A program made the translations under genes and the position numbers. A DNA stretch of 61,674 nucleotides, filler included, from Sphacelaria rigidula (Eukaryota), in the NCBI GenBank assembly GCA_964200075.2. It is 11 parts of 11 records of this genome, joined end to end, with 100 filler letters (N's around TTAATTAATTAA, not from the genome) between each part and the next. Parts side by side here need not be neighbours in the genome. Positions count along the whole stretch, not along the records: positions 33,699 to 39,214 come from CAXNAA020026697.1; 10 more parts are not named here. One strand, written 5' to 3'. Below the pieces are notes generated by a model, which searched no databases, was not told the origin of the DNA, and was given only the letters and a program-made list of their open reading frames with translations. Numbering within the stretch: position 1 is the stretch's first letter; each line of letters starts with the position of its first letter. This document shows, in pieces, positions 417-56,159 of this stretch.

Positions 417-759
417 TTCTATGGCACGTGCGCGGTCTAAGATGTAGGCGATTTCACACTCAAGATTATTTCCACCACAAACGATTGATAGGTTTTAGTC
501 GCATCTGTCTTGTCGCATTCGGCGTCGGTAATTTAGATCATGGAAACGAGTTGTATTCCTACAGATGATGGACGGCTGCCTTGTTTTCTCACGTCGTTTC
601 TCGCCCACGAAGGCCACAAGTTATTCGAAGATGCATGTGGGCAGTGAGTGACAGCTTCGGACCAACCATAGCGGGATGTTATGCTCGAAAACTTGGGGTA
701 CTATGTCTTCGGCAGTTTCCAACTATGTTCGCTTGCATCAATAATCAATCCCCCGACAG

Positions 760-3700
760 GTAACCGAAAAGATCAAGACAATGGAAGAATGGTCACCGCT
801 GTTGAAGGACATACTTGACCGTGCCAAGGCCGGCCATCAATTCCACTTCTATCGCGCCCCTCCCGAGGCGGAGGAGGCAGCCATTATGGTTACTCCGACG
901 TCGGACGAAAAGGTCTCGCGGTGCAAGCGAGACCGACGCCCGCGCCGTCTGCTAAAAGCATTGGGATTGCAGGCGACTCCATCCTCCGCCGATTCCCCGG
1001 CTTCGAGCGCGACTATGACCCCGGGCACAACCCCCACCGCTACCCTGGCTCCACTTCGCAGTGCACCCCGCGGCCGCGGCGGCAACTCCTATGCCTCACC
1101 CGATCCTCCAGTCAACGCGAGCGGCCGCCCTGGGCGAGCGGCATCCGCACCCCCCGCGACCGACGCGGCCGCCTCCACCCCCGCAGCGCCGTACAGAAGA
1201 GGAAGCAGTGGCAGGGGCCGCGGCCGCCGAGGGAGAGACACCGGCCTCGGGAGCGGCAGCGGCAGAAGAGACGGCACGAGAGACAGCAACGGAAGATTCA
1301 GCGTAATCAAGTCGGCGGAGTCGTTCCCGTTGCCTTGTTCTCCGGACCCCGAAACTCCTGCGAGTATGCACAGCGTCTCCGTCCCTACCCCGGCTTCATT
1401 GGCGTTGCTGCCGCCGCCGCCGCCGCTGCCTCCGTTGACCACGGCGGCGGCCGAACGAGGAGGTAGGCGACGAAGCAGCCGATTTGTAGGTGGTGGTGAT
1501 GATGCGTCCACTTCCAGCGAGAGCGAGGCGACGACATATGAGACGAAAGAGGAGAAACAATCTGTTTTTGTGGCGGCAAAACAAGGAGAGGAGGGAGTTG
1601 CTGGGGATAGCGGGGCCCATGACCGCATCATGTCCTCCCCGGAAACGCCGGTTGTAAGGCTCGGGCGGGTGAGGGGCAGGACAAGGACGCGGGGCGGCCC
1701 TGCTGCAGCTTCTTCGGCGGAGGCGGGCGCGCACGCTGCGATGTCATCGTCTCGGGAAAGGGCGGACGTGAAGTTGGCAGATGTTGTTGCTTCTAGTAGT
1801 TGTTCTGTCGCTGCCGCTTCTGCAGGGTCGGTGAGAGCCAACATAAGAGATGTAGCCGAGGGCAGTGCGCCTACCTCTACCGCTAATGAGGCGGGGACCG
1901 ACAAGAAAGAAATTGCCGACTATGATGTGCCTAGCTTTGCCTTTGAGCAGGTGGGCACCGACACAAAAGATGTAGCCGAAGACGGGGCGCCTATCTCTGC
2001 CGTTACTCAAGCGGGCACCGACACAAAAGATGTAGCCCACGATGGCGCGCCTGGCTCTGTCGCCAAGCACGAGATGAAACCCGGCGAACGCCGCGGTCCA
2101 GGAAAACGGAAGGCTAGGCTGCTGGGTGACATTACCAGCTGGGGGAAACTGCCCTCGTCCCGCCCGCCGCCACGCAACCGTCGGCAGCTCCCTTCGCCGT
2201 CTGGGGGGTCGTCGGTGGCTGGTGATGATGGTGCCGCTGTTGCTGCTACTACCGTCTCCCTTGTAGCTGCCGCTGAATCCACCCGGGAATCCGCACTTTC
2301 TGCGTCGTCTTCATCGACCAGCACGGGAAAAGAAATGAAACCGGATGGTTGTGAAAGGGGATGCATCGGTACCGGCGTCGGCAGCGGCGGCGGCGGAGTC
2401 GGTGGCGACAGTGGCAACTCCAAAGATGAGGGTGTTGACGATGAACCTGATGGTCGGAAGGATAGAGCAGGGTCGGCAGCCGACAAGGGCATCAGCCAGG
2501 GTGTCAATGCTGATGAGAAGCACGGTGGACCGGAGGAGGGGGAGGGGTCGCCACCGCCGGGATTCGAGGGTGAGGAAACAAGAAGGGCGGAGGAGAACGC
2601 GCACCCAAAGGAGACGGAGCAGCCGGAAGTGGCTGGGGCAGAAGCGGATGGAGGTAGTGAGAACCGTGGTGCCAAAGACGGGGTGAGAGACGCGGGATCG
2701 GACGAGATGAAGGGTGACGAAGGTGGAGAACGAAGTTATGTGTCGTCCGTAGGCGATGGCACCGGCAAAGGTGATGAGGTAAGTAACACCGGCAACGTGT
2801 TCCCTGTTGGTGTAGGGGCTAGCAGCAGTGCGTCGGTGAAGGTAGGGGCGACCGTGAGTAGCACTCCGGAGGCGGGGGTAGGGCTGGATGTAACTGGGAA
2901 GGAGAAAGAGCAGAATGAGAATGGTGGGAGCGCGGTGGCGGAGAAAAAGGACCAACTAGAAGACATGGATATGTCGGAAGAGGAGGAAGAGGAGGAAGAG
3001 AAATCCGAGCATTTGAAGCAACACAAAGGAGCAGAAGGAGGCGGTGGCAATGATATCCAGGATACATCTAAGGCGAGTATGGTCCTTGACTCGGGCGCAA
3101 ATGACTACAAGGGGCGTTCGCGGGGCGCGGACGAGACTGACGACGGGAAGCGGCAGGCGGAGGGGCGGGAGGACCATGACGCGGCCACGGGATCCGGCGA
3201 AGGCGTGGTGAGGACGCATGCGGCACGGGTGGGGGCCGCGGGGAACGACAACGGTCATGGTGCCGGCGGTGCTAGTGATGGTGCTCAGCAGGCTGGAGAG
3301 ATGATGCACGGCCACGATGGCAATAATGGCGTCGGTGAAGGGAATAAAACGGAAAGTCTTTCAATGCTGTCACTTTCGGCGGGGCGAGACAGTTCGGAGA
3401 GCGAGGAAAAGCTAACTGCTGTTGTCAGCCGCAGGAGAGGTGAGGACAGCGGCAGCGGGGACGAAAACGATGCCAAGGAGAGCAGAGAGAATTCGTCTTC
3501 AGTGCGCCCGGTCGTCGCCCCTGTCGACTCCTCTTCCGCCGCTGTTGGCGCATCCTTGACCTCGACCGATCGAGTCACGGCAGCACCGCTTGGAGAGGCG
3601 GCCGATGGTGACTTTGCCGTATTAGACATGGAGCAGGCGAACAAGGAAGCCAAGGACGAGCGGTGGTCGGCTGCTTCTGCTGCTGCCGGCGCGGTAGAAG

Positions 3701-4529
3701 TGAAGGCGACGGAGGCGGCGGCGGGGATGGTGACGACCCAGGGGCGGACTGAAGAAACAAATCCAGTGGACACGGTATCGATGCTATCACCATCTGATGA
3801 CACGTCGTCTCTCCCCGCTTCTACAGCAGCGAGGGCTCAGGTCATCGATGATAACAGGGGTGGAGCCTCATCTGCCTTGGGAGCAGTAGTGCCTGGTGAG
3901 GGCAGCGCTATGGACACGGCAGCGATCGCCGACGACACCACTGCTCCCGCTGGTGCAGGAACCGTCGCGATCGCCACCACCGGAGAAACGGCAGGTGTTG
4001 CGACTGGAGACGAGACTCAATCATCGGCCCGACAACCCCCTGAAGCTGGAGCTGAAGCTAGCGTCGACACTTTATCGCCAACGGAAGCAACGACTGCGGT
4101 CGGCGAAAATGCTATCGTTGGCACTGCCGCCGCCGCTACTAGGGAGAAGACGGCGAGCGGGGTGGGGTTGCCCCATGGACGCGCACCCGCGGCAGCGGCG
4201 GCGATTGCAGCCACTGCGGGCGTCGCGAAATCTACCCCAAGCAGCAGTGCCAACCCGGAGGCTGTAATGGCGTGCAGAAAAAGCAGTCGCCGTAGAATAG
4301 CGTCCGATCGCGCCAAAGACGCCGAGGAAGACGAGCAGCGCAAGAGGAAGAGCAGTAGCCTGGGTGGCGGCGGTTGGGCTGTGGACGGCGGCGATGGCGG
4401 CGATGGTGCTGGTGGTTGGGGGGGCGGGGGGACAGGCGCGTCCGGCGTTCCGGCCGGCAGTGCGGTCCCGTTCCCGGCTCATGTGGACACGTCACTTCTT
4501 GCTAGACCTACCGACATGTACCTCTGCCG
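760..4529 (+). CDS. Very large internal exon, Ala/Gly/Ser/Glu-rich disordered protein of unknown function
   Basis: 1250-codon open frame; acceptor ccccgacAG at 758-759 is in frame with ORF 781; donor CG|GTGAGT at 4530. Confidence 0.85.
1847..2067 (+). repeat. 60-bp (20-aa) coding tandem repeat, about 3.5 copies (GTDTKDVAEDGAP...)
   Basis: ggcaccgacacaaaagatgtagcc-like unit recurs at an exact 60-bp period. Confidence 0.85.
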
Positions 4530-5090
4530 GTGAGTTCCGCTTTTTTTTACGTTTCATTGTTTTGTGCTAGCAGGAACGTAGTTGAATTATTCCCCTGGGC
4601 AGTATTGGTGCTCGTATGTTTTGATTTTGAAGCGTGTATCTGCTTGCAGGAAAATAAAGAGAAAGAGCAAATCGGGACGGTACTGATCTACGGTTCTACG
4701 GAAGTGCAGCGTTGCAAGTACCGTAGGGCCCGGTTATCATGAATAGCGTGTTGCCGAAGATTATGAACCTCAGGGTATTGAAGGATACCGCCACACAGGT
4801 ATCGATGATATTTCAAGGATTGCGGATGGCCGATCAAAAGACAAGAGCATCCACGCTTGGCTTGTAACGACCATTGCACAAGCCAGGTGGTGACCATATG
4901 TGTTCGTGATTATATATTTCAAGTATTGATATAGTGGAGTGTGGTACAGTAGCATGAATGAGGAGCTGACCCCCCCCCCCTCCTGTGCATAGAGGAAGGC
5001 GCGGGGTACAAGGCAGAAGTAGAGACACGATAAAAATAAGGGGAAAAGGAGCGCTCAGAAGTAGATGGATAAGATATGTATAATATTTTT

Positions 5091-5517: not shown

Positions 5518-5617
5518 NNNNNNNNNNNNNNNNNNNNNNNNNNNNNNNNNNNNNNNNNNNNTTAATTAATTAANNNNNNNNNNNNNNNNNNNNNNNNNNN
5601 NNNNNNNNNNNNNNNNN
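5518..5617. other. Artificial contig linker
   Basis: 44 N + TTAATTAATTAA + 44 N. Confidence 0.98.
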
Positions 5618-11134: not shown

Positions 11135-11234
11135 NNNNNNNNNNNNNNNNNNNNNNNNNNNNNNNNNNNNNNNNNNNNTTAATTAATTAANNNNNNNNNN
11201 NNNNNNNNNNNNNNNNNNNNNNNNNNNNNNNNNN
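11135..11234. other. Artificial contig linker
   Basis: 44 N + TTAATTAATTAA + 44 N. Confidence 0.98.
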
Positions 11235-19490: not shown

Positions 19491-21830
19491 GTTATCATTA
19501 TTATCATTATTATCATTATCACCATTATTAATATTATCGCGCATTAGCACGATCTCGCGAACCCGTGGTCACAGACGTAGGCTCGTCTTTCCAATATCGT
19601 CCCTGCTATTACTAATAATAAGACATTACCAAAACCTGAAAGTAATAAGAGAGACGCCACGAAAACATGTGAGAAATGGCTCCGCCGATTTCAAAAGGGG
19701 GGGGGAAATGAGACAAAAATCAACAACGTCATGTTTTCCGAAAAGAAAGAAGTACACCGAAAGAAAGGAAGAGCGAAAATAAAACAAGAGAAGACAAGAA
19801 AAGACAGGTTACACAAGGAGATTAGCATGCAAACCAAGTTCCGGTTCAACTAAAAAAAACAACCCCAGGCACTCTCATCGACGACTACCACAGCTGTTCA
19901 GAAACGTGCGGCAGATGTACCAGCGAGTGTTTTGCCCGATGGACCACAGCTTACGTTTCGGAGCTCCTCGACACTGGGGGAACTCTAGAGGCAGTACAGC
20001 AAAAAACTCCTAAGCTTGGCGTGCTTTTGTCCACGCGACCATGTACAAGTTAGGCCCCTCCTCTACAACTCGAGATCATTCGGACGCATATTGGGCAACC
20101 TGCGTCCACGATGTCGAGTTTATTCCAAAATATGAGCAGTGGTCCGTGGTGCAATGTTGTAGGCACCTTGCGGATCGGCCTGCCCTGGCCTTTCCTCCAA
20201 CCATCACTCCACGAATGACGATGTTGGGGAGGCAATCATCGTGCATATGCACAACGCGGCCGGCGTGTAGGAGGGTTCGTTTCATCACGTTGGCCTCGAT
20301 GCATTCGCAGCTAGTTCGTTCGAGGGCCTCGTGGTACGGCAGCATTTGGTAGTCAGGGTCTTGCGACTGAACGTATGCTTGCTGAGGCACCTCAGAAGAA
20401 ATCCTCGGTAAGCCTCCAATGACGCGCCGAAACTGTCTTGTGCGATCGTCCAGGTCGCGCAGACGTACACCATCACCTCGATCACTTCAGTCTTCAGAAG
20501 GCTGGCCTTGGTGGCCAGGGCGATGTACTGGTTGACGTAGATCGCTTTGCTATACTTGTGGAAGCACGCCCAGGCCTGGCCAATGCGGCTGTGGATCTCA
20601 GGGATGACATCACCGATGCTGCTGATTTTACCGCCAAGATAGAGGAAATATTCAACTTGCTTGTATCGTGGGCCAGCTGCCTCCACCTCGACCGTTTCCG
20701 CCTCCATGTTCGGGGAACACATGTGCATGGTGACAGTCTTGTTTTCCGCCACGACAAGGCCGGACGCCGCACAGACCTCGACGATTGCGATCATCGTCTT
20801 TGCCAGGCTTTCTCGAGACCGCGAGGCGATGCCAGCGTCGTCGGCGTGTAGCATGGTCCAGAGCACTTTCCTGAGTTCATTCCTGGTGTTCCTGCCCATT
20901 GCAGGGATTCGGATGAAATACTGAACCACCGCTTTATTGATCGAGAAGCGGTCGAACGATACCGTCATCAACACCGCGAAAAAGATGTTGAACAGGTCAG
21001 GGGAAAGTACACAACCTTGGCGGAGGCCCTGGTTGACGTTAAACATTCGGATGTTTCGCCGCTGTCCAGGCGTACGCATACCCGCATGCCGTCATGGAGT
21101 TGGCGGAGGATGAAAATTACCTTGGTGCGTATACCGTAGCGCGCTTAAAACGTTTCAGAGAAGAGAGCGGTCCACTGAGTCGTATGCGTTTTGGAGGTCG
21201 ATGAAGCACATGTACAGAGGAACATTCTTCTTTCGGGCCAGTTCTTCGAGTCCGCGTACAACGAACATCATGTCGACTGTGGAACGACCAGGTCGGAAAC
21301 CGCATTGCGATTCTGGGAGGATTCCATTCCACTCGCAAAATGCGCTGAGGCGAGTCGCAACTATCTTGAGCACCACCTTACCCGCGTGGGACCCGAGAGA
21401 AATATCGCGGTAGTTGCCGCATTCGTACGGGTCCTGCTTCTTGAAAAGCACCTTGATGATGGTGTATTTCCACTCTTGCGGTACAACTTTCTGACGCCAC
21501 ATGGTGAGTACAATGTCGTGGAGGCACGTCAGGATGGCAAAGTCTTCGGTGCAGCCAAGCTTCAACAGTTCGTCACAGATAGATGTTGTCCGTCTCAGCA
21601 GTCTTGCCGTTTGTCAGGTTGCCCACCGCTTACTTCACTTCTACCATCGAGGGCTCCGCCGCGAGCGGTGTGTGTTCCGGCAGCTGTTCAATGAGACCGA
21701 TGACCGAGTGACCAATTGTAGACGAGGTTGCATTCAGCACTGTCTCGAACCATTACTTCCATCGTTGCAGGATAGCTTGCTTGTCCCGCAACAGCTCGCC
21801 AGTCGCGCTCCTGACGTAGTTCGGGTCGTG
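19491..21830 (-). mobile_element. 5'-truncated, frameshifted RTE-clade LINE with reverse transcriptase, 3' UTR and (TAA/TGA)n tail
   Basis: RT motifs [69 protein letters not shown]. 3' end at 19550-19612 matches 50352-50444. 5' boundary approximate. Confidence 0.93.
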
Positions 21831-32800: not shown

Positions 32801-33412
32801 AAAGTTCCTCAACCTTGGGGAGGAAATGAAGATTGCGAGCAAGTCGTGCGTGTCCTCGTCGACTATGCCAGCCAAGTCAGAATCTAGTGAGCCACCTTCG
32901 GTGTTGGTATCGATTTGCTTCGCATGACCCAAACCTGAAAGCAAACTGACGACACAGCGCAGCACGCAGCAGGGACACACAGCACTTCAGCCAATGCCGT
33001 GACACAAAGGTGATGAATCTGTGACAGGTATACTGCGTGTTCAGAACGCGTGCGTTCAGGACCACATCGGAGTTTGAACACCCCGGGACCGACGTGTCGG
33101 GAAGACAGCGACACGACGACGACGCAGTGTGCCTAATAACGAGGAGCGCAAGGCTTCCAAAAGTATAAAATTCAGAGGCCAGTAGGTCGTCTAGAATTCG
33201 TTCTCGCAGCTGGCACCTGTAAGTACCGAGCATCAGTTCGTCGTTGTGGCCATGACGACGAAGTAGACGCCGACACCCCCCTAGAATACTCTGGGTCAAC
33301 TATTTCCCACCACAAAACACCTGCGATAGTGATTCCCTATACGAGTTACTGGTGCCTGAATTTCATAGTCTTGAAATTCTTGCTCTCCTCCCTTTCTGGG
33401 CACACTGCTGCC

Positions 33413-33598
33413 GCCGCGCCCCGGTGGTGTAAAGGTCCGACTGTCACCATAAGGGTGGAGAGAACGGGGGTTCGATTCCTGATGCGTTGGGTTTTTTCTT
33501 CGTAATGTATGATTTCCGCCATGGAAAGCGTGAGAGTATGAGTAAACAAAGTAGTCGACTGGGTTTGTGTGACGTGAATTGACGCGGTGCGGGAGTGC
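33413..33598 (+). mobile_element. tRNA-headed SINE, cut by contig end
   Basis: Pol III A-box TGGTGTAAAGG (33425-33435) and B-box GGTTCGATTCC (33469-33479); body shared with other copies; no acceptor stem. Confidence 0.7.
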
Positions 33599-33698
33599 NN
33601 NNNNNNNNNNNNNNNNNNNNNNNNNNNNNNNNNNNNNNNNNNTTAATTAATTAANNNNNNNNNNNNNNNNNNNNNNNNNNNNNNNNNNNNNNNNNNNN
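33599..33698. other. Artificial contig linker
   Basis: 44 N + TTAATTAATTAA + 44 N. Confidence 0.98.
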
Positions 33699-33934
33699 TA
33701 ACTTTTGTGTGCGTTTAAGAGACAACCAACTAGACTACTGCCCCGTCAGCGCTGACTGGTCAGTAGTCTAGGTGGTTGTCTCTTAAACCGTCACACCCCG
33801 CGGCTGGATCCCTAGGAAGTCAACTGATGTGCGACAGGCGACCAAATCAACCAATCGGTCGATTATCCATTAAATTACGCGTGTCCAGCAGACACGGATC
33901 TTGCCGACCACAGTTCGCTCGGGTACGGGGCGGG

Positions 33935-35070
33935 GGCGGGGGGTGGTGGTACTCATGATCATGCATGCTATGGTCATTAGACCATTGACCTCGCATCCCN
34001 NNNNNNNNNGAGTCGCATGAAGGGTGAGCTGCATCTTGCTAAGATTGTCCGGCCCGAAGCCTACTGATTATCTTGCATTTGCAGTTTCCTCTATTTGTGC
34101 CTACAGCTAAGGTTATTCTTATTTAAACTTAAGTAAAAGGGTTAGCTAAATCTAACGTATAACTAAATAAAATATTACTTAATTGCTTGTACATGTTCTA
34201 AGGATTTTTATGTAAAAGGTATAACATGATTCATTATCATTTTTGTTATATTCAAACAATAGTATTTACTTAGTGATAGTGATCTAGCTAAGTGTTTCCT
34301 CCTACTTAAATAAAGATAGAAATAACTTGTTTACCGTAGACACGGATAAAAGAAAAGGTATAAGTTGCAGTATGCTGCTTTCGGGTTTGTAGCCTAGGGA
34401 AGAAAAAATAGTTTTATCCCTAAAGAGGAACAACTGGGTTATTCTTATGTATTCATTTATTGTTTAGGGAAGAAAAGATTGGGCGTGCCATGTATCAGGT
34501 TATGTTTTTTTTCGCGTTTTCTTGTGTTTTTTCACGTTTTTCGCGTTTTTTACATTTTTCGCGTTAAGTTAGTATGTCCGGCGACGGATTTTCTTTGTCC
34601 CAGAAAAGTATAGTTTTTTTCATTATTTTTTTTTATTTCTTGGGTTCTTAAATTAATATTTGCGTTGAGTTGTTCTCCTATACTTTTTTCGTTTTCTTTG
34701 AGATCAGAAATAGTAATTCTATTTTGTTGCATAAAATTTTTCCAAGGCTCAGATTTACTTACCTTTTTAACAGCACTATAGTAAGCCGTTTTGAGGTAAT
34801 GTATGTCAATTATTCGGACATAAAACTCGTCGTGGACGGTGTACGTTGGTTTTTTTGTTTTTCGGAATTCACTTACTACATGATGTAATATTGTAGAATC
34901 CACGTGGTGTATAAAGTTGGGTAAAGTTGCTCTTATCGTTTTATTGATATTAGGAGCTGCGTCGAAACGTCTCGTGTCCCCAAGATTTTGAGGAAGTCTG
35001 GTATCGCCACTTCCAGAGACAGCCACGGCTTATACACTGCCTCATGGGTGTCTCACCATCCCGAGCGGGG
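33935..35070 (+). mobile_element. Family B copy interrupted by a ~0.9-kb foreign insert
   Basis: 33935-34096 and 34997-35070 align to consecutive parts of the uninterrupted copy at 46762-47058; a 10-N scaffold gap lies at 34000-34009. Confidence 0.85.
34550..34996 (-). pseudogene. C-terminal fragment of a T7/T3-phage-type single-subunit RNA polymerase within an AT-rich, probably organellar insert (about 34097-34996)
   Basis: NINKTIRATLPNFIHHVDSTILHHVVSEFRKTKKPTYTVHDEFYV matches the T7 RNAP PNFVHSQD...IHDSF motif C region, including the catalytic Asp; no intron; strongly AT-rich compared with host exons. Confidence 0.85.
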
Positions 35071-37159
35071 GGGAAGTGACGGGGTGCAATTGCGCTGCAC
35101 AACTCCAGAGTGCACATGAAAGGCCTGCATATCAATCATTGAGCTGAGAAGTCTGCTTGGACCACGCTTTCATTGAGAATTGTTTTTTCAAGAATTTATC
35201 TTGTCAGAGCACTTCGCTCCCACGGAGGACTTGTTGCCGCGGACGCTACGTCTGTACTCCAACTCCAGAGTCCAGGTTCGTAGCTGTAGTGTGAAGCACA
35301 CACAAATTGATAGACCTGGGAAGAGGGAGTCTCTCTCGTGTGGGACCTAGCACGCTGTTGGTCGTGGGGAATGATCCTCGGGGGAGGCGACCTGAAATCT
35401 TGGTCGTATATCTACGGTCGATTTTTCCGAACAAACAATAACCCTAGCCCTAACCCTAACCCCGACCCAAGGCGTACGAGACCTTCGGGCAAGGGGGGTG
35501 CACGGGTTCCCCTAGGCAAAGTGTGCGTTGCCAGACAATCGATGCCGAGCGCCGATGTCGACAAAATCAGGTTCTGGACGAACTGGGTCCACTGCTCACC
35601 TGCCCCAAACCATATTTTTTTTCAGAACTTTCTCGAATCTCGAATCAAGTATTATAGTTATTTTGTCAGATATACAGCCAAAGCTTTTACGTGCTTTTCA
35701 CCAAGTTTCACACACGGATTGCCGACAAACGTTCCATTTCGTTGACGAGCACGAAACGAAAGTAGATTTCACTCTGGCTACGATTTTCAGCCAAGTGATG
35801 GGAGTTTCATGGCCGCTCTGATGAACGTGCATTATTACTGACTGTGTAACATTGCAGTCGCCGAAAGATGCGTTGCAGAGCAGTACTGTTTACATCCAGT
35901 GAGTGAAGTCGAGTCCGCGTTACCGTACTACACTGTATCGCTGTGTTGGGTATATTATAGCACCTTCTACTCGTCTACCGCAAGAAGGATGGAATACGAT
36001 AGCACTCGATACTACCACTGCTGTGTCTGTGAATACGACAGACTTGCCCCAACGGCATACGTGCGCCACAAAATTAGGCACGCCCTGATTTTCATGTATC
36101 ACGTGGTATATACAGTACATTAGTAGTATAGTGCACACGCCCCGTCCCACGTGGAGGTTTATTGAGCGCGTGCGGAAGGGTGGGGTGCCTGCGGTCAGTA
36201 GTCGATTTTCAAGCGGAGATGATGCTCATTCCGATTCAACACACACAAAATACGGATTATACAAGTACGGGCATCCCGGGGTGGTCAAGGGGACTTTACG
36301 CCTCAGACCGCGAAGCAGTTGACTGGAATCCACGCATTATTTCAAAGACCGCTACTGCGGCGAAGATCGGCCTCTTCGGCCGAGCCAAGAGCCTAAATAA
36401 CAATACGATTAGAGTTTGACACGTTCTTGGACAAGAACGCTTGTCATGGAACAAAACACAAAATGCCATAGCCGAATGCAGACCGCCTGAGCTGCGAGCT
36501 CATGTAACGCCTGGGACTGGCGACTTTCAAAATACTTCATTGGAGGGAATCCAAGAGGAAAGTCGGGTACACATACGCTACGCATGCATCGGTATGTACC
36601 TGACGGATTTCTGCACTTTGACGCAACCCATGAATATGCGTTGCTTCCCCCCCTTTCGTGTTCGCGCAATGTTGGTTGAACGGGCTTTGAACGCGCGGTA
36701 GATGTCAGACCAGCCCCGTCACGAGTATCTACTCTTGGAAGAGAGGGGGGGTGAGAACGCGGGGCGACAATTCATACCGTATCTACAGCTGAAGCGCTGG
36801 GGTGGGCCTGCGCCGAAATTCACGGCGAAAACAAGCGGAAACAGGAACCTACGAAATAGAAGAGGGGGGGCGCGATCAAAGTTTTTGAATCAAGATTGCT
36901 CGAAAGTAGGCCTTGGGCAGGGAGCAATCCCTGAAACAATACTTGCGTTTTTTTCTCCCATGAACACATGACAGTCGATAGATCGGAGATACAGTACTAC
37001 TACTACTGTTGTCTGTACCATATTTCTGCTACGGCGCTACGGCTTTATACTTTATACACGCCGGGCAACGTTTAGCGAGTACATCAACGATTATGACATC
37101 ATGAGAGATATCCATCTCCGTTCTTTGCCCTCGAATCAAACACTGAACAAAACTCACAC

Positions 37160-37444
37160 CTGGTCGACGACGTCGTCTGTTTTTGGTGATGGAGGGGGTG
37201 AAAGGTATACCACAGCATCGCTAGGATTGAGGCCATGTCGTGCGCAAGCCTCCGCATGACCCTCTTGAGGATGAGAAGCCACCCACACCAAGTCTATCAC
37301 GGAGGAGTCTGCAGTTGCTCCCATAGCAGCACAGGCCTGCTGCAGTATATTCGAGTCGAGTACAACTGCTGCTGCTGCGGTGACAATGGTGATGGCCCGC
37401 GCCCGCGCCATCATGCGCGACAGCGCGGGCCTAAAAGTCTCCAT
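37160..37444 (-). CDS. Probable first exon of an unknown protein with an N-terminal hydrophobic, signal-like segment
   Basis: METFRPALSRMMARARAITIVTAAAAVVLDS...KTDDVVDQ, then CAG|GTGTGAGT donor. Confidence 0.55.
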
Positions 37445-37690
37445 TAGATAGCTATTGCTGGATCCTGAGTGAGTCAAAGTGCCGCTGTGCCTGGGTTCAA
37501 GGCCGCTGTGTTCTCCACGACACTACGCAGAGAAAAATGGGAACGAAGTCTCTCAGGTACCGATATGGATAATGGCCAAGTTGTAAGCTGCCCATGGAGG
37601 CGCCGCGTGCATTCCGAGGTTTGCAGTGCTACATTGATACCTCCCCACCTGTCACAGGTGAAGTATACCGCAAGTGTGAAGTAACTCAGC

Positions 37691-38599
37691 ATGACGGACA
37701 ATGGCGGCGTGGTATCAGCTGCCGACACCGCCGTGGTGGCTTTTCGAGAATTGGTGATCCTTGATGCTGCAGGTGGCCCCAACAGCAGACCGATGGTACA
37801 GGACTCGACACTGTGGACAACAGAGAGAATACGCCATGCAGCACACGGACGTCTCCACTTGCAAGCCTTGGAAGCTATACTCAGCCCGACCACCAGCTCG
37901 GCCGATATCATGGGCGCGGTGGCATACGGTGTTACCAGCCAGGGTCTAAGAGTCACGCAACGCGACGATTCCGGAAGAATAGTGGCCCAGCGCATCGAAG
38001 CTCCATATCTCGCTAGCTTTGCCACAGGGTCACGAGCCAGCCGGATACCCACAGTCGAGTGGCGCGTGGTAGTGGCCACGCTGGGCGTGTCAAGGGGACT
38101 AGCCCCATGGGGCGGCGTAGAGCGCGTTCTTTTGCTGGAATTCATGTCGGACCCTATTTCCACTGCAAAGCAAGATTTGGCCTCGAGAGGTGCCGCTGCG
38201 ATGCTGTCATTGTACGGCGCCGCCGCCGCGGCCGGTGTCGCGGTGGTCTCTTCATCGACGAGTAACAGTAGCTCCAGCAATGGTACCAGCAGCGGAATGA
38301 TGGGGGCAACGACGGCGACTAAGAGCACATCTGCTGTGGCTATTGCTCGTCAGAGGAGTAACCAGCGGGCGGAGGCACTTCTGGAAGGAGTGGCTGCCGA
38401 GCTTAACCGGCTGGGGTGCGGTGTGGTCACCGCTGCGGCGGCGGCCGACAGAGAAGAGAAGGGACTCAAGGAGGCGCATCGCGACGGTGAGAAAACATCG
38501 TCGGTGAAGCTGGTGCCATGGGGCGATGGCGAAGGGACCAAAGAGGGCACCGCGTCTAGCGCTTCTTCGGGTATCGCAGCTGGCGTGGAAAGGACTCAG
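37691..38599 (+). CDS. Probable first exon of an unknown protein (about 303 aa)
   Basis: 318-codon ORF with host-like composition, in-frame stop just upstream of the ATG, CAG|GTGTGG donor at 38600. Confidence 0.65.
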
Positions 38600-39214
38600 G
38601 TGTGGGCGGCTGGAGAGAGATGCACTGGCACCATCGTGGTGAGATAATGATCGCAATGTGCGACACTGGTGAACAAAAGATGACACGTCAAAGCAGTACC
38701 CTAATCGACAGCACAGGACTGGCTCCAGGATAATGGCACGTTTCTGTTTGTGCTTCCGTCTCCCCAAGCGGTGCAGTCAGTCTGTACTGTACACAAACAA
38801 CTAGGGTCATGTGATGAATGTGGTCGTATCGAAGCAATATTTGTATGGAAAGTCTCAATTCACGGAACTCCCGAAACAAGGCCCAGCAACCTTGCAGCCA
38901 CAATTGAACGTTCTGCTGCGAGCGTATTGAGCATGTAAGACGATAACCATCCAGCAGCGCTGATTGCGTACTGGCGTAAAACTGTACGAGCGTACCAGGG
39001 TTAGAAAAACTTCGCAGGCTTCGCGTGCGCTTGCGCAGGCGGGGACCGGAGGCGTCATGCAAGAAAAAAAGGATTTTCCTTTCAAAAAGACGCCTAGATT
39101 TTGTCAAAATGGGGCCATTTCGACGGTTTGAGCCTCGCGGAGGTACCGACCCCACCGTACACAAAAACGCACACCACCAGGCATCCGCCCGGTTGAACAG
39201 CACCAGGGGAATCA

Positions 39215-46761: not shown

Positions 46762-47058
46762 TGTGATCTTGCATGCCGTAGTTATGAGACCGTTAACCTC
46801 GCAACCCTACGAAACCGGGACGGAGCACGTTAGGTTGTCGCCGGACCAGGCTCGCAATTAATCGCGCGAAGCGCCGTGATGTGTTCGGCGAGTCGCAAAA
46901 AGGGTGAACTGCATCTTGCCAATATCGTTCGGCCCGAAGCGCACCGATTAACTTGCATTTGGGTCAACGCCTCCAATGAGTTTCCTTCATTTTCTGGTAC
47001 CGCCACTTCCAGAGACAGCCACGGGCTATTCTGCCTGACGGGGTTTTTCACCATCTGA
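46762..47058 (+). mobile_element. Family B copy (uninterrupted reference), intronic
   Basis: Aligns to 24450-24710 and to both halves of the split copy at 33935-35070. Confidence 0.85.
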
Positions 47059-56059: not shown

Positions 56060-56159
56060 NNNNNNNNNNNNNNNNNNNNNNNNNNNNNNNNNNNNNNNNN
56101 NNNTTAATTAATTAANNNNNNNNNNNNNNNNNNNNNNNNNNNNNNNNNNNNNNNNNNNN
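56060..56159. other. Artificial contig linker
   Basis: 44 N + TTAATTAATTAA + 44 N. Confidence 0.98.

What the first reader, a model, noticed from the sequence alone, without database searches (positions are those of the whole stretch)
34097..34996. T7-phage-type RNA polymerase fragment inserted into a nuclear repeat: likely fossil of a mitochondrial or plasmid rpo gene
Seen: a ~900-bp AT-rich, intronless block interrupts a family B repeat. The flanks (...ttgcatttgcagtttcctctattt | tctggtatcgccacttccagagacagccacgg...) are contiguous in the intact copy near 46950-47030, and there is no TSD. Its minus strand reads NKTIRATLPNFIHHVDSTILHHVV...TVHDEFYV, open to a stop at 34550. Established: this is the PNFxHxxD...HD motif C region of T7/T3-type RNA polymerases. 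The normal mitochondrial enzyme is nuclear-encoded, but AT-rich versions occur on linear mitochondrial plasmids and in the mtDNA of the brown alga Pylaiella littoralis. Inference: this is recent break-repair capture from an organellar genome, or from an undescribed plasmid- or virus-like replicon of this alga. The unbroken frame suggests the donor is recent or still present.
Basis: partly seen in the sequence, partly recalled or inferred. Interest (0 to 1): 0.8.

Follow-up and report, generated by a model that had tools for sequence, protein, structure and literature searches.

The report
Nuclear fossil of mitochondrial-type RNA polymerase
A 900-base AT-rich piece carrying the tail end of a phage-type RNA polymerase gene, of the kind known from brown-algal mitochondria, lies dead inside a very common nuclear repeat; it is a real but fairly ordinary relic of organelle or plasmid DNA captured by the nucleus.

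Summary
Bases 34097-34996 are a 900-nt block of 32% G+C in a 53% G+C setting. It splits one copy of a very high-copy repeat exactly where an uninterrupted copy (46890-47055) is continuous, with no target-site duplication.

Its minus strand holds 148 open codons (34996-34553, stop 34550-34552). They match Pfam RNA_pol PF00940 above the curated cut-off. The best match is the C-terminus of the mitochondrion-encoded RNA polymerase of Pylaiella littoralis (49% identity). In a tree the fragment sits in a 22-row clade (support 100/98) with all seven named brown-algal sequences.

Public-run contigs carry the insert with repeat sequence on both sides, at the depth of the neighbouring unique DNA, so it is not an assembly chimera. 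A roughly 2%-diverged allele from another study has the same insertion, a frameshift and only amino-acid-changing substitutions, so it is drifting.

It lacks polymerase motifs A and B and has no usable start codon. No high-depth (organelle-like) copy at 90% identity or more was seen, so a still-present donor is unsupported.

Best reading: a 5'-truncated organelle- or plasmid-derived gene fragment captured at a chromosome break. The donor lineage is unsampled (about 50% identity or less to anything known). Interest is modest.

The parts
34097..34996 (-). Foreign AT-rich insert (900 nt, G+C 0.32): 3' part of an RNA polymerase gene plus its downstream sequence
   Evidence: Composition. Flanks abut in the uninterrupted repeat copy. 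One 972-nt contig of run X1 covers 34054-35025 with 0 differences.
34550..34996 (-). 5'-truncated reading frame: 148 codons plus stop (34550-34552). It corresponds to residues 693-803 of the 824-aa Pylaiella littoralis mitochondrial RNA polymerase.
   Evidence: frame; PF00940, 31 bits against cut-off 22; 49% identity over 111 aligned positions, E 2e-37 pairwise; clade support 100/98.
34898..34921 (-). PNFIHHVD motif (residues 26-33 of the fragment)
   Evidence: Read. P26, N27 and H30 are invariant in alignment A1. It aligns to PNFIHSLD of human mitochondrial RNA polymerase.
34829..34834 (-). His-Asp of motif C (TVHDEF; residues 55-56)
   Evidence: Read. H55 and D56 are invariant in A1. They align to VHDCYW of human mitochondrial RNA polymerase. 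The name 'motif C' and the T7 residue numbers are recalled, not from a call.
34097..34549 (-). 453 nt downstream of the stop codon: AT-rich (G+C 0.31), non-coding, origin unknown
   Evidence: No tRNA. No Rfam family, including no group II intron domain. No similarity to any held protein or locus beyond chance.
34503..34565 (.). Tandem 9-nt units (TTTTTCACG / TTTTTCGCG) overlapping the stop codon. The allele of run X4 is 9 nt shorter here.
   Evidence: table 4: 8 nt left out at 34529 and 1 nt at 34521.
34010..34096 (+). Left part of the interrupted host repeat, lacking 16 nt relative to other copies
   Evidence: Consensus of empty sites comes from the loose ends, table 7.
34997..35059 (+). Right part of the interrupted host repeat
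   Evidence: Summed contig depth is in the millions against about 60 for the unique neighbours (table 2).
34000..34009 (.). 10-N gap in the record. Sequence to its left does not continue the repeat.
   Evidence: Compare, where the other copy continues 30 nt further left.
46890..47055 (+). Uninterrupted copy of the same repeat, in a different piece of the concatenated window

Best explanation
The 900-nt block is a dead, 5'-truncated fragment of an AT-rich gene for a single-subunit (T7-type) RNA polymerase. The gene belongs to the lineage known from brown-algal mitochondrial genomes (the Pylaiella rpo clade). About 450 nt of the gene's downstream sequence came with it.

The fragment now sits as a single copy in nuclear DNA, inside one copy of a very abundant short repeat. 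The most likely route is the one that makes nuclear copies of organelle DNA. A piece of escaped organellar or mitochondrial-plasmid DNA was ligated into a chromosome break by end joining. This leaves no target duplication, no terminal repeats and no poly(A).

It does nothing now. It lacks the N-terminal four-fifths of the enzyme, including polymerase motifs A and B. No ATG precedes the conserved part, and it is drifting neutrally.

Shown: the identity of the fragment, its clade, the junctions, the single-copy depth, its presence in a second lineage, and the lack of coding constraint.

Inferred: the nuclear location (from composition, repeat context and depth), the end-joining route, and the kind of donor replicon.
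For: Identity:
- PF00940 above its cut-off.
- In a HMMER scan of 1.84 billion representatives, 56 proteins scored E<=0.001, 9 scored <=1e-10 and none <=1e-30. The best was Pylaiella littoralis mitochondrial RNA polymerase O78798/NP_150421 (E 5.4e-27, 50% identity), followed by Hedophyllum nigripes and Desmarestia aculeata 'RNA polymerase'.
- All 11 of 11 invariant columns of the clade alignment are kept in the fragment.
- A profile of the clade reaches human mitochondrial RNA polymerase at E 0.0035, with PNFIH..D and VHD aligned.
- The predicted fold (pLDDT 76) has yeast and human mitochondrial RNA polymerases and T7 RNA polymerase (residues 761-877) as the top 3 of 70 chains. Z is 5.1-5.3, which is weak on its own.

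Clade: in the careful tree of 67 rows by 122 columns, the fragment lies in a 22-row clade (ultrafast bootstrap 100, SH-aLRT 98). That clade holds all 7 named brown-algal rows. Within it, the fragment falls in a 10-row subclade with Pylaiella (89/81).

A real insertion at single-copy depth (contigs only):
- Run X1: one 972-nt contig covers 34054-35025 with 0 differences at depth 59.2, against 67.2 and 64.8 for the unique contigs to the right.
- Run X3 (another sample): contigs 34281-34731 and 34702-35025 with 0 differences at depth 11.1 and 8.0, against 15.2 and 8.2.
- Run X4 (another study): one 883-nt contig with the same two flanks.

No coding constraint: between the window and X4, the 10 substitutions in the frame change 9 codons and all 9 changes alter the amino acid. 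There is also a 1-nt deletion at codon 124.

No ATG precedes the conserved part: the first Met of the stop-to-stop frame is at about residue 99 of 159.

Anatomy: no target duplication, no inverted ends.
Against: - The donor was not found and no genome is held for this window. Whether the donor was mitochondrial DNA, a plasmid or something else is therefore open.
- The host is known only as a coded organism plus the label 'algae metagenome' for one holder. 'Brown alga' rests on the relatives of the fragment.
- All laid data are de Bruijn contigs, not reads. The contigs reach 43 nt into the left flank but only 29 nt into the right flank, just under the tool's own bridging rule of 31.
- A 10-N gap lies 87 nt left of the insert.
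- In X4 the insert contig has depth 47.8 against 27.7 and 24.5 for the flanks, which is unexplained.
- The insert differs more between X1 and X4 (17 of 821 sites) than the unique right flank does (4 of 643; Fisher p 0.025), also unexplained.
- Sequence and fold matches to solved polymerases are weak on their own: phmmer found none, Foldseek had no match at E<=0.001, and Z was about 5.
- End joining is inferred from the absence of other signatures. Microhomology cannot be judged without the donor sequence.
Confidence: 0.8

Rival explanations
1. Ordinary NUMT: the fragment was copied from an rpo gene or pseudogene that sits today in this species' own mitochondrial genome, as in Pylaiella, Desmarestia and some kelps.
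For: Among named relatives, Pylaiella carries a mitochondrial-genome RefSeq accession. The passages read in PMC8290108 place Desmarestia aculeata and Hedophyllum nigripes among brown-algal mitogenomes with T7-like RNA polymerase ORFs or pseudogenes. The AT-rich composition fits organelle DNA.
Against: In three DNA-type runs read whole, depth over the insert is flat at the level of its single contig: 59.2, 8-11 and 47.8. No high-depth contig of 90% identity or more lies on it. Contigs can drop records, and the mitochondrial depth itself was not measured. No known mitochondrial rpo is closer than about 50%. The 453-nt downstream part has no tRNA, no group II intron signature and no match to anything held.
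Confidence: 0.15
2. The donor is a free, still-circulating mitochondrial plasmid or virus-like replicon of this alga that carries a full RNA polymerase gene. The nuclear copy is a recent by-product.
For: More distant relatives sit on plasmid-like contigs. The 7.6-kb metagenome contig L003 has a DNA_pol_B_2 gene (E 1.6e-78) directly upstream of a 1060-aa RNA polymerase. Fourteen unnamed clade members come from 0.9-15 kb contigs. The frame is intact and all 11 invariant residues are kept.
Against: No extra-depth copy appears in any of the laid runs. The insert itself has no DNA polymerase fragment or terminal inverted repeat. The insertion is old enough to be shared by lineages about 2% apart. 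A passage read in bioRxiv 10.1101/2022.04.05.487141 calls another ochrophyte's element the first mitochondrial plasmid reported from a stramenopile.
Confidence: 0.1
3. Assembly chimera or contaminant: the AT-rich block was wrongly joined to nuclear repeat sequence.
For: A 10-N gap lies 87 nt to the left. The flanks are a very high-copy repeat in which assemblers often err.
Against: Independent contigs in runs of two studies (X1 and X3 of P1; X4 of P2) carry the insert with the same flanks. The left flank includes this copy's private 16-nt deletion. Depth is that of the neighbouring unique DNA. X4 carries a diverged allele of the same junctions, which a one-off misjoin cannot produce.
Confidence: 0.03
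4. RNA-mediated retrocopy: a 3' part of an organellar or plasmid transcript was reverse-transcribed into the nucleus by a retroelement.
For: The fragment is 5'-truncated and includes the 3' end of the gene with downstream sequence. A reverse-transcriptase fragment exists elsewhere in the window (20288-21091).
Against: There is no poly(A)/poly(T) at the end corresponding to the transcript's 3' end (34097 side) and no target-site duplication.
Confidence: 0.04
5. Domesticated coding exon: the open frame is kept because the host uses the peptide.
For: 148 codons are open while the other frames have a stop every 12-18 codons on average.
Against: All 9 of 9 codon differences to the X4 allele are amino-acid-changing, and X4 has a frameshift at codon 124. 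No ATG lies upstream of the conserved part. Only the last sixth of the enzyme is present.
Confidence: 0.02

Closest known systems
Mitochondrion-encoded T7-like RNA polymerase (rpo) of Pylaiella littoralis (O78798 / NP_150421, 824 aa)
   Same: Best match in a 1.84-billion-protein scan. It is 49% identical over residues 693-803, with PNFIHH(I/V)DS and FTVHD(A/E)FYVR shared, and it sits in the same 10-row subclade. The gene is AT-rich.
   Different: The window holds only the last ~140 codons, in nuclear rather than mitochondrial DNA. It is half-diverged, so Pylaiella is not the donor. The eight aligned relatives end in IL + one residue; here the frame reads NLT and runs three codons further, into a 9-nt tandem repeat.
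T7-like RNA polymerase ORFs and pseudogenes in mitogenomes of Desmarestia aculeata, Hedophyllum nigripes and other brown algae (Starko et al. 2021, PMC8290108; passages read)
   Same: Fragmentary ORFs (145-310 aa) of the same 22-row clade, 43-45% identical. They too are decayed remnants of a patchily distributed gene.
   Different: Those lie in mitochondrial genomes. This one lies in a nuclear repeat and matches none of them closely.
NUMTs (nuclear copies of mitochondrial DNA)
   Same: Organelle-type DNA lies at a nuclear site without target duplication. It is non-functional, at single-copy depth and evolving neutrally.
   Different: Identity to the host's own mitogenome, which defines a NUMT, could not be shown. 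No organelle-depth counterpart at 90% identity or more was seen.
Linear mitochondrial plasmids carrying a T7-type RNA polymerase and a protein-primed family B DNA polymerase
   Same: Same polymerase superfamily. The metagenome contig L003 shows the paired DNA_pol_B_2 + RNA_pol layout in a 30%-identical relative.
   Different: The insert contains no DNA polymerase remnant and no terminal inverted repeat. No free plasmid was seen.
T7 RNA polymerase and nuclear-encoded mitochondrial RNA polymerases (human POLRMT, yeast Rpo41)
   Same: Same Pfam family. Motif-C region aligned. The fold of the C-terminal region is their best structural match (T7 residues 761-877, Z 5.3, rmsd 4.5, 113 aligned). A phage 'RNA polymerase' matches at 30% identity, E 1e-3.
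   Different: Far more distant than the brown-algal clade: E 0.0035 for a profile against 5e-27 for a single sequence. The fragment is not a version of a nuclear RPOT-type gene: it is 32% G+C in 53% G+C DNA.

Membership tests
Single-subunit (T7/phage-type) RNA polymerase, Pfam PF00940 | Significant match to the family profile | tested here: met
   E 1.6e-07, 31 bits against a curated cut-off of 22, profile positions 290-403 of 448.
Single-subunit (T7/phage-type) RNA polymerase, Pfam PF00940 | Motif C His-Asp and the preceding PNFxHxxD element | tested here: met
   PNFIHHVD and TVHDEF are present, invariant in the clade, and aligned to PNFIHSLD / VHDCYW of human mitochondrial RNA polymerase. 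The motif names are recalled.
Single-subunit (T7/phage-type) RNA polymerase, Pfam PF00940 | Complete catalytic core (motifs A and B, fingers and N-terminal domain; about 800-1000 aa) | tested here: not met
   Only 148 codons are present, matching residues 693-803 of an 824-aa relative. The frame stops 11 codons into the flanking repeat. It is a gene fragment, not a polymerase.
Single-subunit (T7/phage-type) RNA polymerase, Pfam PF00940 | Fold of the C-terminal palm/thumb-proximal region | tested here: inconclusive
   The top 3 of 70 chains are yeast, T7 and human enzymes, but Z is only 5.1-5.3. Foldseek gave no match at E<=0.001.
Brown-algal mitochondrial rpo clade | Groups with Pylaiella, Hedophyllum, Desmarestia and Ectocarpus sequences to the exclusion of other relatives | tested here: met
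   A 22-row clade with support 100/98 holds the fragment and all 7 named brown-algal rows. The tree has 67 rows by 122 columns and the bootstrap had not fully settled.
Brown-algal mitochondrial rpo clade | Located in the mitochondrial genome | tested here: not met
   The fragment is embedded in 53% G+C DNA within a very high-copy repeat. Its depth equals that of the neighbouring unique contigs.
NUMT | Nuclear location of organelle-type DNA, without transposon signatures | tested here: met
   Junctions lie within contigs at single-copy depth. There is no target duplication and no inverted ends. The nuclear location is itself an inference from composition and context.
NUMT | Sequence identity to the host's own mitochondrial genome | tested here: inconclusive
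   No genome is held. No higher-depth contig of 90% identity or more lies on the insert in runs X1, X3 and X4. Contigs may omit records, and a diverged donor would be missed.
Linear mitochondrial plasmid | RNA polymerase together with a protein-primed DNA polymerase B and terminal inverted repeats, as a free multicopy replicon | tested here: not met
   No DNA polymerase similarity and no inverted ends in the insert. Depth is single-copy. The layout was seen only in the distant relative L003.

The most novel reading that the evidence does not exclude
The fragment is a footprint of an undescribed, mobile RNA-polymerase-bearing replicon of brown algae: a mitochondrial plasmid, or a plasmid-derived element that hops between mitogenomes. 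The 22-member clade would be its family. That clade includes 14 unnamed sequences on 0.9-15 kb contigs and partial proteins from three Ectocarpus assemblies. This family would repeatedly leave fossils in mitochondrial and nuclear genomes. It would be the first evidence for such plasmids in Phaeophyceae.
Probability: 0.25. Interest if true: 0.55.

Novelty: new member of a known kind. Interest (0 to 1): 0.33.

Why it matters
On its own this is a dead relic, but it adds a data point to an open question. T7-like RNA polymerase genes turn up sporadically in brown-algal mitochondria, and how they move is unknown.

The fragment is only about 50% identical to every known member, yet it keeps every invariant residue. 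The donor lineage is therefore unsampled and was functional shortly before capture.

If relatives prove to lie on free plasmids, brown algae would join fungi and plants as hosts of such elements. The nuclear copy is also a datable marker, because it is shared by two lineages about 2% apart.

Six literature searches (listings and a few passages only) turned up no report of a nuclear copy of this gene in brown algae.

Tried and rejected
- Whole-genome search was not possible: no genome is held. Earlier findings were not open.
- phmmer of the fragment alone against solved structures gave only chance hits with E>=0.17. The profile search worked instead.
- Word-indexed homology search with the single fragment, longer proteins: none of 225 candidates scored.
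- IMG/VR viral contigs: 73 pattern matches, none confirmed.
- The JGI metagenome scan gave only 4 loci at 30-44% identity and no close donor.
- The 3' 453 nt had no tRNA and no Rfam family at E<=1 within the insert. The one hit in 33000-36000 is a palindrome outside it, at 33.8 bits against a gathering score of 150. There was no blastn, blastx or tblastx similarity beyond chance.
- Sigma-70 promoter and terminator scan: 5 and 1 sites against 3.3 and 0.8 expected, which is uninformative.
- Naming of outgroup rows failed: 0 of 10 clusters carried a name. The tree therefore contains no row verified as a nuclear RPOT or as a named plasmid polymerase.
- Expression: no RNA holder listed. The run guessed to be RNA (X6) had no contig on the insert. 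This says nothing either way.
- Taxon from the window's own genes: of 9 long ORFs, 8 had no Pfam family and one was a reverse-transcriptase fragment. The protein-atlas look-up of the 1262-aa ORF gave nothing.
- Foldseek against PDB: no match at E<=0.001.
Full report
**What the window is**

The 61,674 bases are not one stretch. N44 + TTAATTAATTAA + N44 spacers recur every ~5.6 kb and divide the window into 11 pieces of 5515-5517 nt. The finding lies in piece 33699-39214. No whole genome is held for the window.

**Observation**

Bases 34097-34996 have 0.32 G+C against 0.53 for the rest of the piece. The left flank 34010-34081 matches 46890-46961 at 84.7%. The right flank 34997-35060 matches 46993-47055 at 83%.

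In the three-way alignment the left flank ends ...ATTT and the right flank begins TCTGG..., and these two are adjacent in the uninterrupted copy. There is therefore no target-site duplication and no loss of target bases at the insertion point. The interrupted copy does lack 16 nt of the repeat, 15 nt further left.

The other five frames have 17-26 stops in 299-300 codons and longest open runs of 34-78 codons. A 10-N gap lies at 34000-34009, and the sequence to its left does not continue the repeat.

**Identity of the frame**

- Pfam: RNA_pol PF00940 matches at E 1.6e-07, 31 bits (cut-off 22), profile positions 290-403 of 448.
- HMMER scan of 1.84 billion representative proteins: 56 hits at E<=0.001, 9 at <=1e-10, none at <=1e-30.
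- Names: of the ten best looked up, three carry names. These are the mitochondrial RNA polymerase of Pylaiella littoralis (824 aa, E 5.4e-27) and 'RNA polymerase' ORFs of Hedophyllum nigripes (145 aa) and Desmarestia aculeata (310 aa).
- Pairwise, the fragment is 49% identical (54 of 111) to Pylaiella residues 693-803. It is therefore the last sixth of the protein.
- Searches with a profile of nine clade sequences (A1) added further relatives. These are two more full-length unnamed proteins (826 and 814 aa) and partial 'unnamed protein products' from Ectocarpus sp. 12, Ectocarpus sp. 4 and Ectocarpus fasciculatus. None is more than 51% identical to the fragment.
- The fragment keeps all 11 of 11 invariant columns of A1: P26, N27, H30, R45, T53, H55, D56, F58, D64, Y72 and N92.

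**Link to the solved enzymes**

The fragment alone finds nothing real in the PDB. The A1 profile reaches human mitochondrial RNA polymerase at E 0.0035, with PNFIHSLDS and VHDCYW aligned to the fragment's motifs.

A model built from A1 (pLDDT 76.1) has no Foldseek match at E<=0.001. In the VIA-align second look, the three top chains of 70 are yeast mitochondrial RNA polymerase (Z 5.3), T7 RNA polymerase residues 761-877 (Z 5.3, rmsd 4.5, 113 aligned) and human mitochondrial RNA polymerase (Z 5.1). Such Z values are weak alone, but they agree with the sequence evidence. One phage record matches at 30% identity, E 1e-3, under an annotated RNA polymerase.

**Tree**

I cut 66 of the 67 other proteins held to the region matching the fragment. 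One was dropped for fewer than 58 aligned residues. I then built a careful IQ-TREE tree of 67 rows by 122 columns. The bootstrap had not fully settled.

The fragment lies in a 22-row clade on a long stem (0.90) with support 100/98. This clade contains all seven named brown-algal rows and 14 unnamed ones. Inside it, the fragment falls in a 10-row group with Pylaiella (89/81). Its own end branch is long (0.90).

The rows outside the clade could not be named: 0 of 10 clusters carried a name. So the tree does not contain a verified nuclear RPOT. The argument against a nuclear-gene origin rests on the far weaker match to nuclear-type enzymes and on composition.

**Is the insertion real?**

Eleven public runs were listed, of which nine hold part of 34010-35400. 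Four of the nine hold at least half of the sampled words. Four runs were laid on 34010-35800, all as Logan contigs, not reads.

| Run | Contig(s) on the insert | Differences | Depth on insert | Depth of unique contigs to the right |
|---|---|---|---|---|
| X1 | 972 nt, 34054-35025 | 0 | 59.2 | 67.2 and 64.8 |
| X3 (another sample, same study) | 34281-34731 and 34702-35025 | 0 | 11.1 and 8.0 | 15.2 and 8.2 |
| X4 (another study, labelled algae metagenome) | 883 nt, 34054-34132 and 34212-35025 | 17 substitutions, 10 gap letters, 79-nt deletion | 47.8 | 27.7 and 24.5 |

The contigs stop 43 nt into the left flank and 29 nt into the right flank. This is where the high-copy repeat begins to collapse, and 29 is just under the tool's 31-letter rule for bridging.

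The flanking repeat has summed depths in the millions. Its empty sites have the consensus ...GCATTTG GATGACAGCCTCCAATGAGTTGCTTCATTT TCTGG....

Depth across the insert is flat at the level of its single contig. No higher-depth contig of 90% identity or more lies on it.

From this I conclude:
- The insertion is a genuine single-copy feature.
- It predates the split of two lineages.
- It has no near-identical multicopy (organelle-like) counterpart in these samples. This last point is an inference, since mitochondrial depth was not measured and contigs can omit records.

**Selection**

Between the window and the X4 allele, the frame has 10 substitutions in 9 codons, and all 9 change the amino acid. 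X4 also has a 1-nt deletion at codon 124. The downstream 374 covered nt have 7 substitutions.

The stop-to-stop frame runs only 11 codons into the host repeat. Its first Met comes after the conserved motifs. The fragment is not under coding constraint and cannot make a polymerase.

**The rest of the insert**

The 453 nt downstream of the stop are AT-rich and match nothing:
- no tRNA;
- no Rfam family, including none for group II introns;
- no similarity to held proteins or loci.

A 9-nt tandem repeat overlaps the stop codon and is one unit shorter in X4. The eight aligned relatives all end in IL + one residue. The fragment reads ...NLT and then runs three more codons into this repeat, so the original stop may have been displaced. 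That is an inference.

**Relatives' context**

A metagenome scan gave four loci. L003 and L004 (7.6 kb, 28% G+C, 30% identity to the fragment) carry a DNA_pol_B_2 gene (E 1.6e-78) directly upstream of a 1060-aa RNA polymerase. This is the layout of linear mitochondrial plasmids. L001 (44% identity over 59 residues) has a 699-aa polymerase frame that is open only if TGA is read as Trp.

**Literature**

- Passages read in PMC8290108 say that T7-like RNA polymerase ORFs or pseudogenes occur in mitogenomes of Desmarestia aculeata, Hedophyllum spp., Pleurophycus gardneri and Pseudochorda nagaii. [quoted passage not shown]
- A passage read in PMC4814812 lists the Pylaiella case among plasmid-derived sequences in mitochondrial DNA.
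- A passage read in bioRxiv 10.1101/2022.04.05.487141 calls a circular element of another ochrophyte the first mitochondrial plasmid reported from a stramenopile.
- The original Pylaiella papers (Rousvoal 1998; Oudot-Le Secq 2001) were seen only as references.
- Six searches, read as listings, showed no report of a nuclear copy of this gene in brown algae.

**Explanation**

The anatomy is a blunt insertion with no duplication, no inverted ends and no poly(A). The gene is 5'-truncated and carries its downstream sequence. This fits capture of a stray piece of organellar or plasmid DNA at a chromosome break by end joining, the route accepted for NUMTs. That attribution rests on established knowledge, not on a test here.

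The kind of donor replicon stays open. Against a present-day mitogenome donor or a living plasmid stands the lack of any extra-depth copy. For an organellar-type donor stand the composition and the clade.

**Unexplained**

- The insert differs more between X1 and X4 (17 of 821) than the unique right flank (4 of 643; p 0.025).
- X4's insert contig has nearly twice the depth of its flanks.

**Verdict**

The finding is real and correctly read by the first stage. It is a new, divergent member of a known kind, of modest interest.

Noticed in passing
window 5518-5617, 11135-11234... 56060-56159: The window is a concatenation of 11 pieces of 5515-5517 nt joined by N44 + TTAATTAATTAA + N44 spacers. 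Distances between features in different pieces are meaningless.
   Followed up: yes
window 34010-34096 and 34997-35059; 46890-47055: The host repeat is extraordinarily abundant. Summed contig depth is 2-8 million against about 10-65 for unique neighbours in three DNA-type runs, and it also appears in a run guessed to be RNA. It has a variable ~30-nt core. Its nature (SINE, MITE or satellite) was not determined.
   Followed up: partly
window 35439-35468: A telomere-like (TAACCC)4 tract lies 440 nt right of the insert, within another high-copy stretch with depth up to 185,000.
   Followed up: no
window 33706-33795: Palindrome with 45-nt arms, 87% complementary and no spacer, at the start of the piece. 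It gives a sub-threshold MIR9471 match (33.8 bits against a gathering score of 150), probably by chance.
   Followed up: no
window 745-4530 (+): A 1262-codon open frame in the most G+C-rich piece (0.585). It has no Pfam family and no usable protein-atlas hit.
   Followed up: partly
window 20288-21091 (-): Reverse-transcriptase fragment (RVT_1, E 1.1e-09). It is the only Pfam hit among 9 long ORFs tested.
   Followed up: no
L003 1186-6393; L004: Two 7.6-kb AT-rich metagenome contigs carry a protein-primed-type DNA polymerase B gene directly followed by a 1060-aa T7-type RNA polymerase. This is a linear-plasmid-like layout. No long terminal inverted repeat was found within the contig.
   Followed up: partly
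L001 1601-3700: The RNA polymerase frame of 699 codons is open only with two TGA codons read as Trp. This suggests a mitochondrial replicon of an organism using that code, not a brown alga.
   Followed up: partly
proteins P0068, P0012, P0013: Partial RNA polymerase products of the same clade are annotated in assemblies of three Ectocarpus species, on contigs of 0.5-3.5 kb. They may be further nuclear fossils, or mitochondrial or plasmid pieces.
   Followed up: no
window 34097-35800: Between runs X1 and X4 the insert differs at 17 of 821 sites against 4 of 643 in the unique right flank (Fisher p 0.025). Eight of the 17 changes are C>T or G>A, including an adjacent CG>TA pair at 34844-34845.
   Followed up: partly
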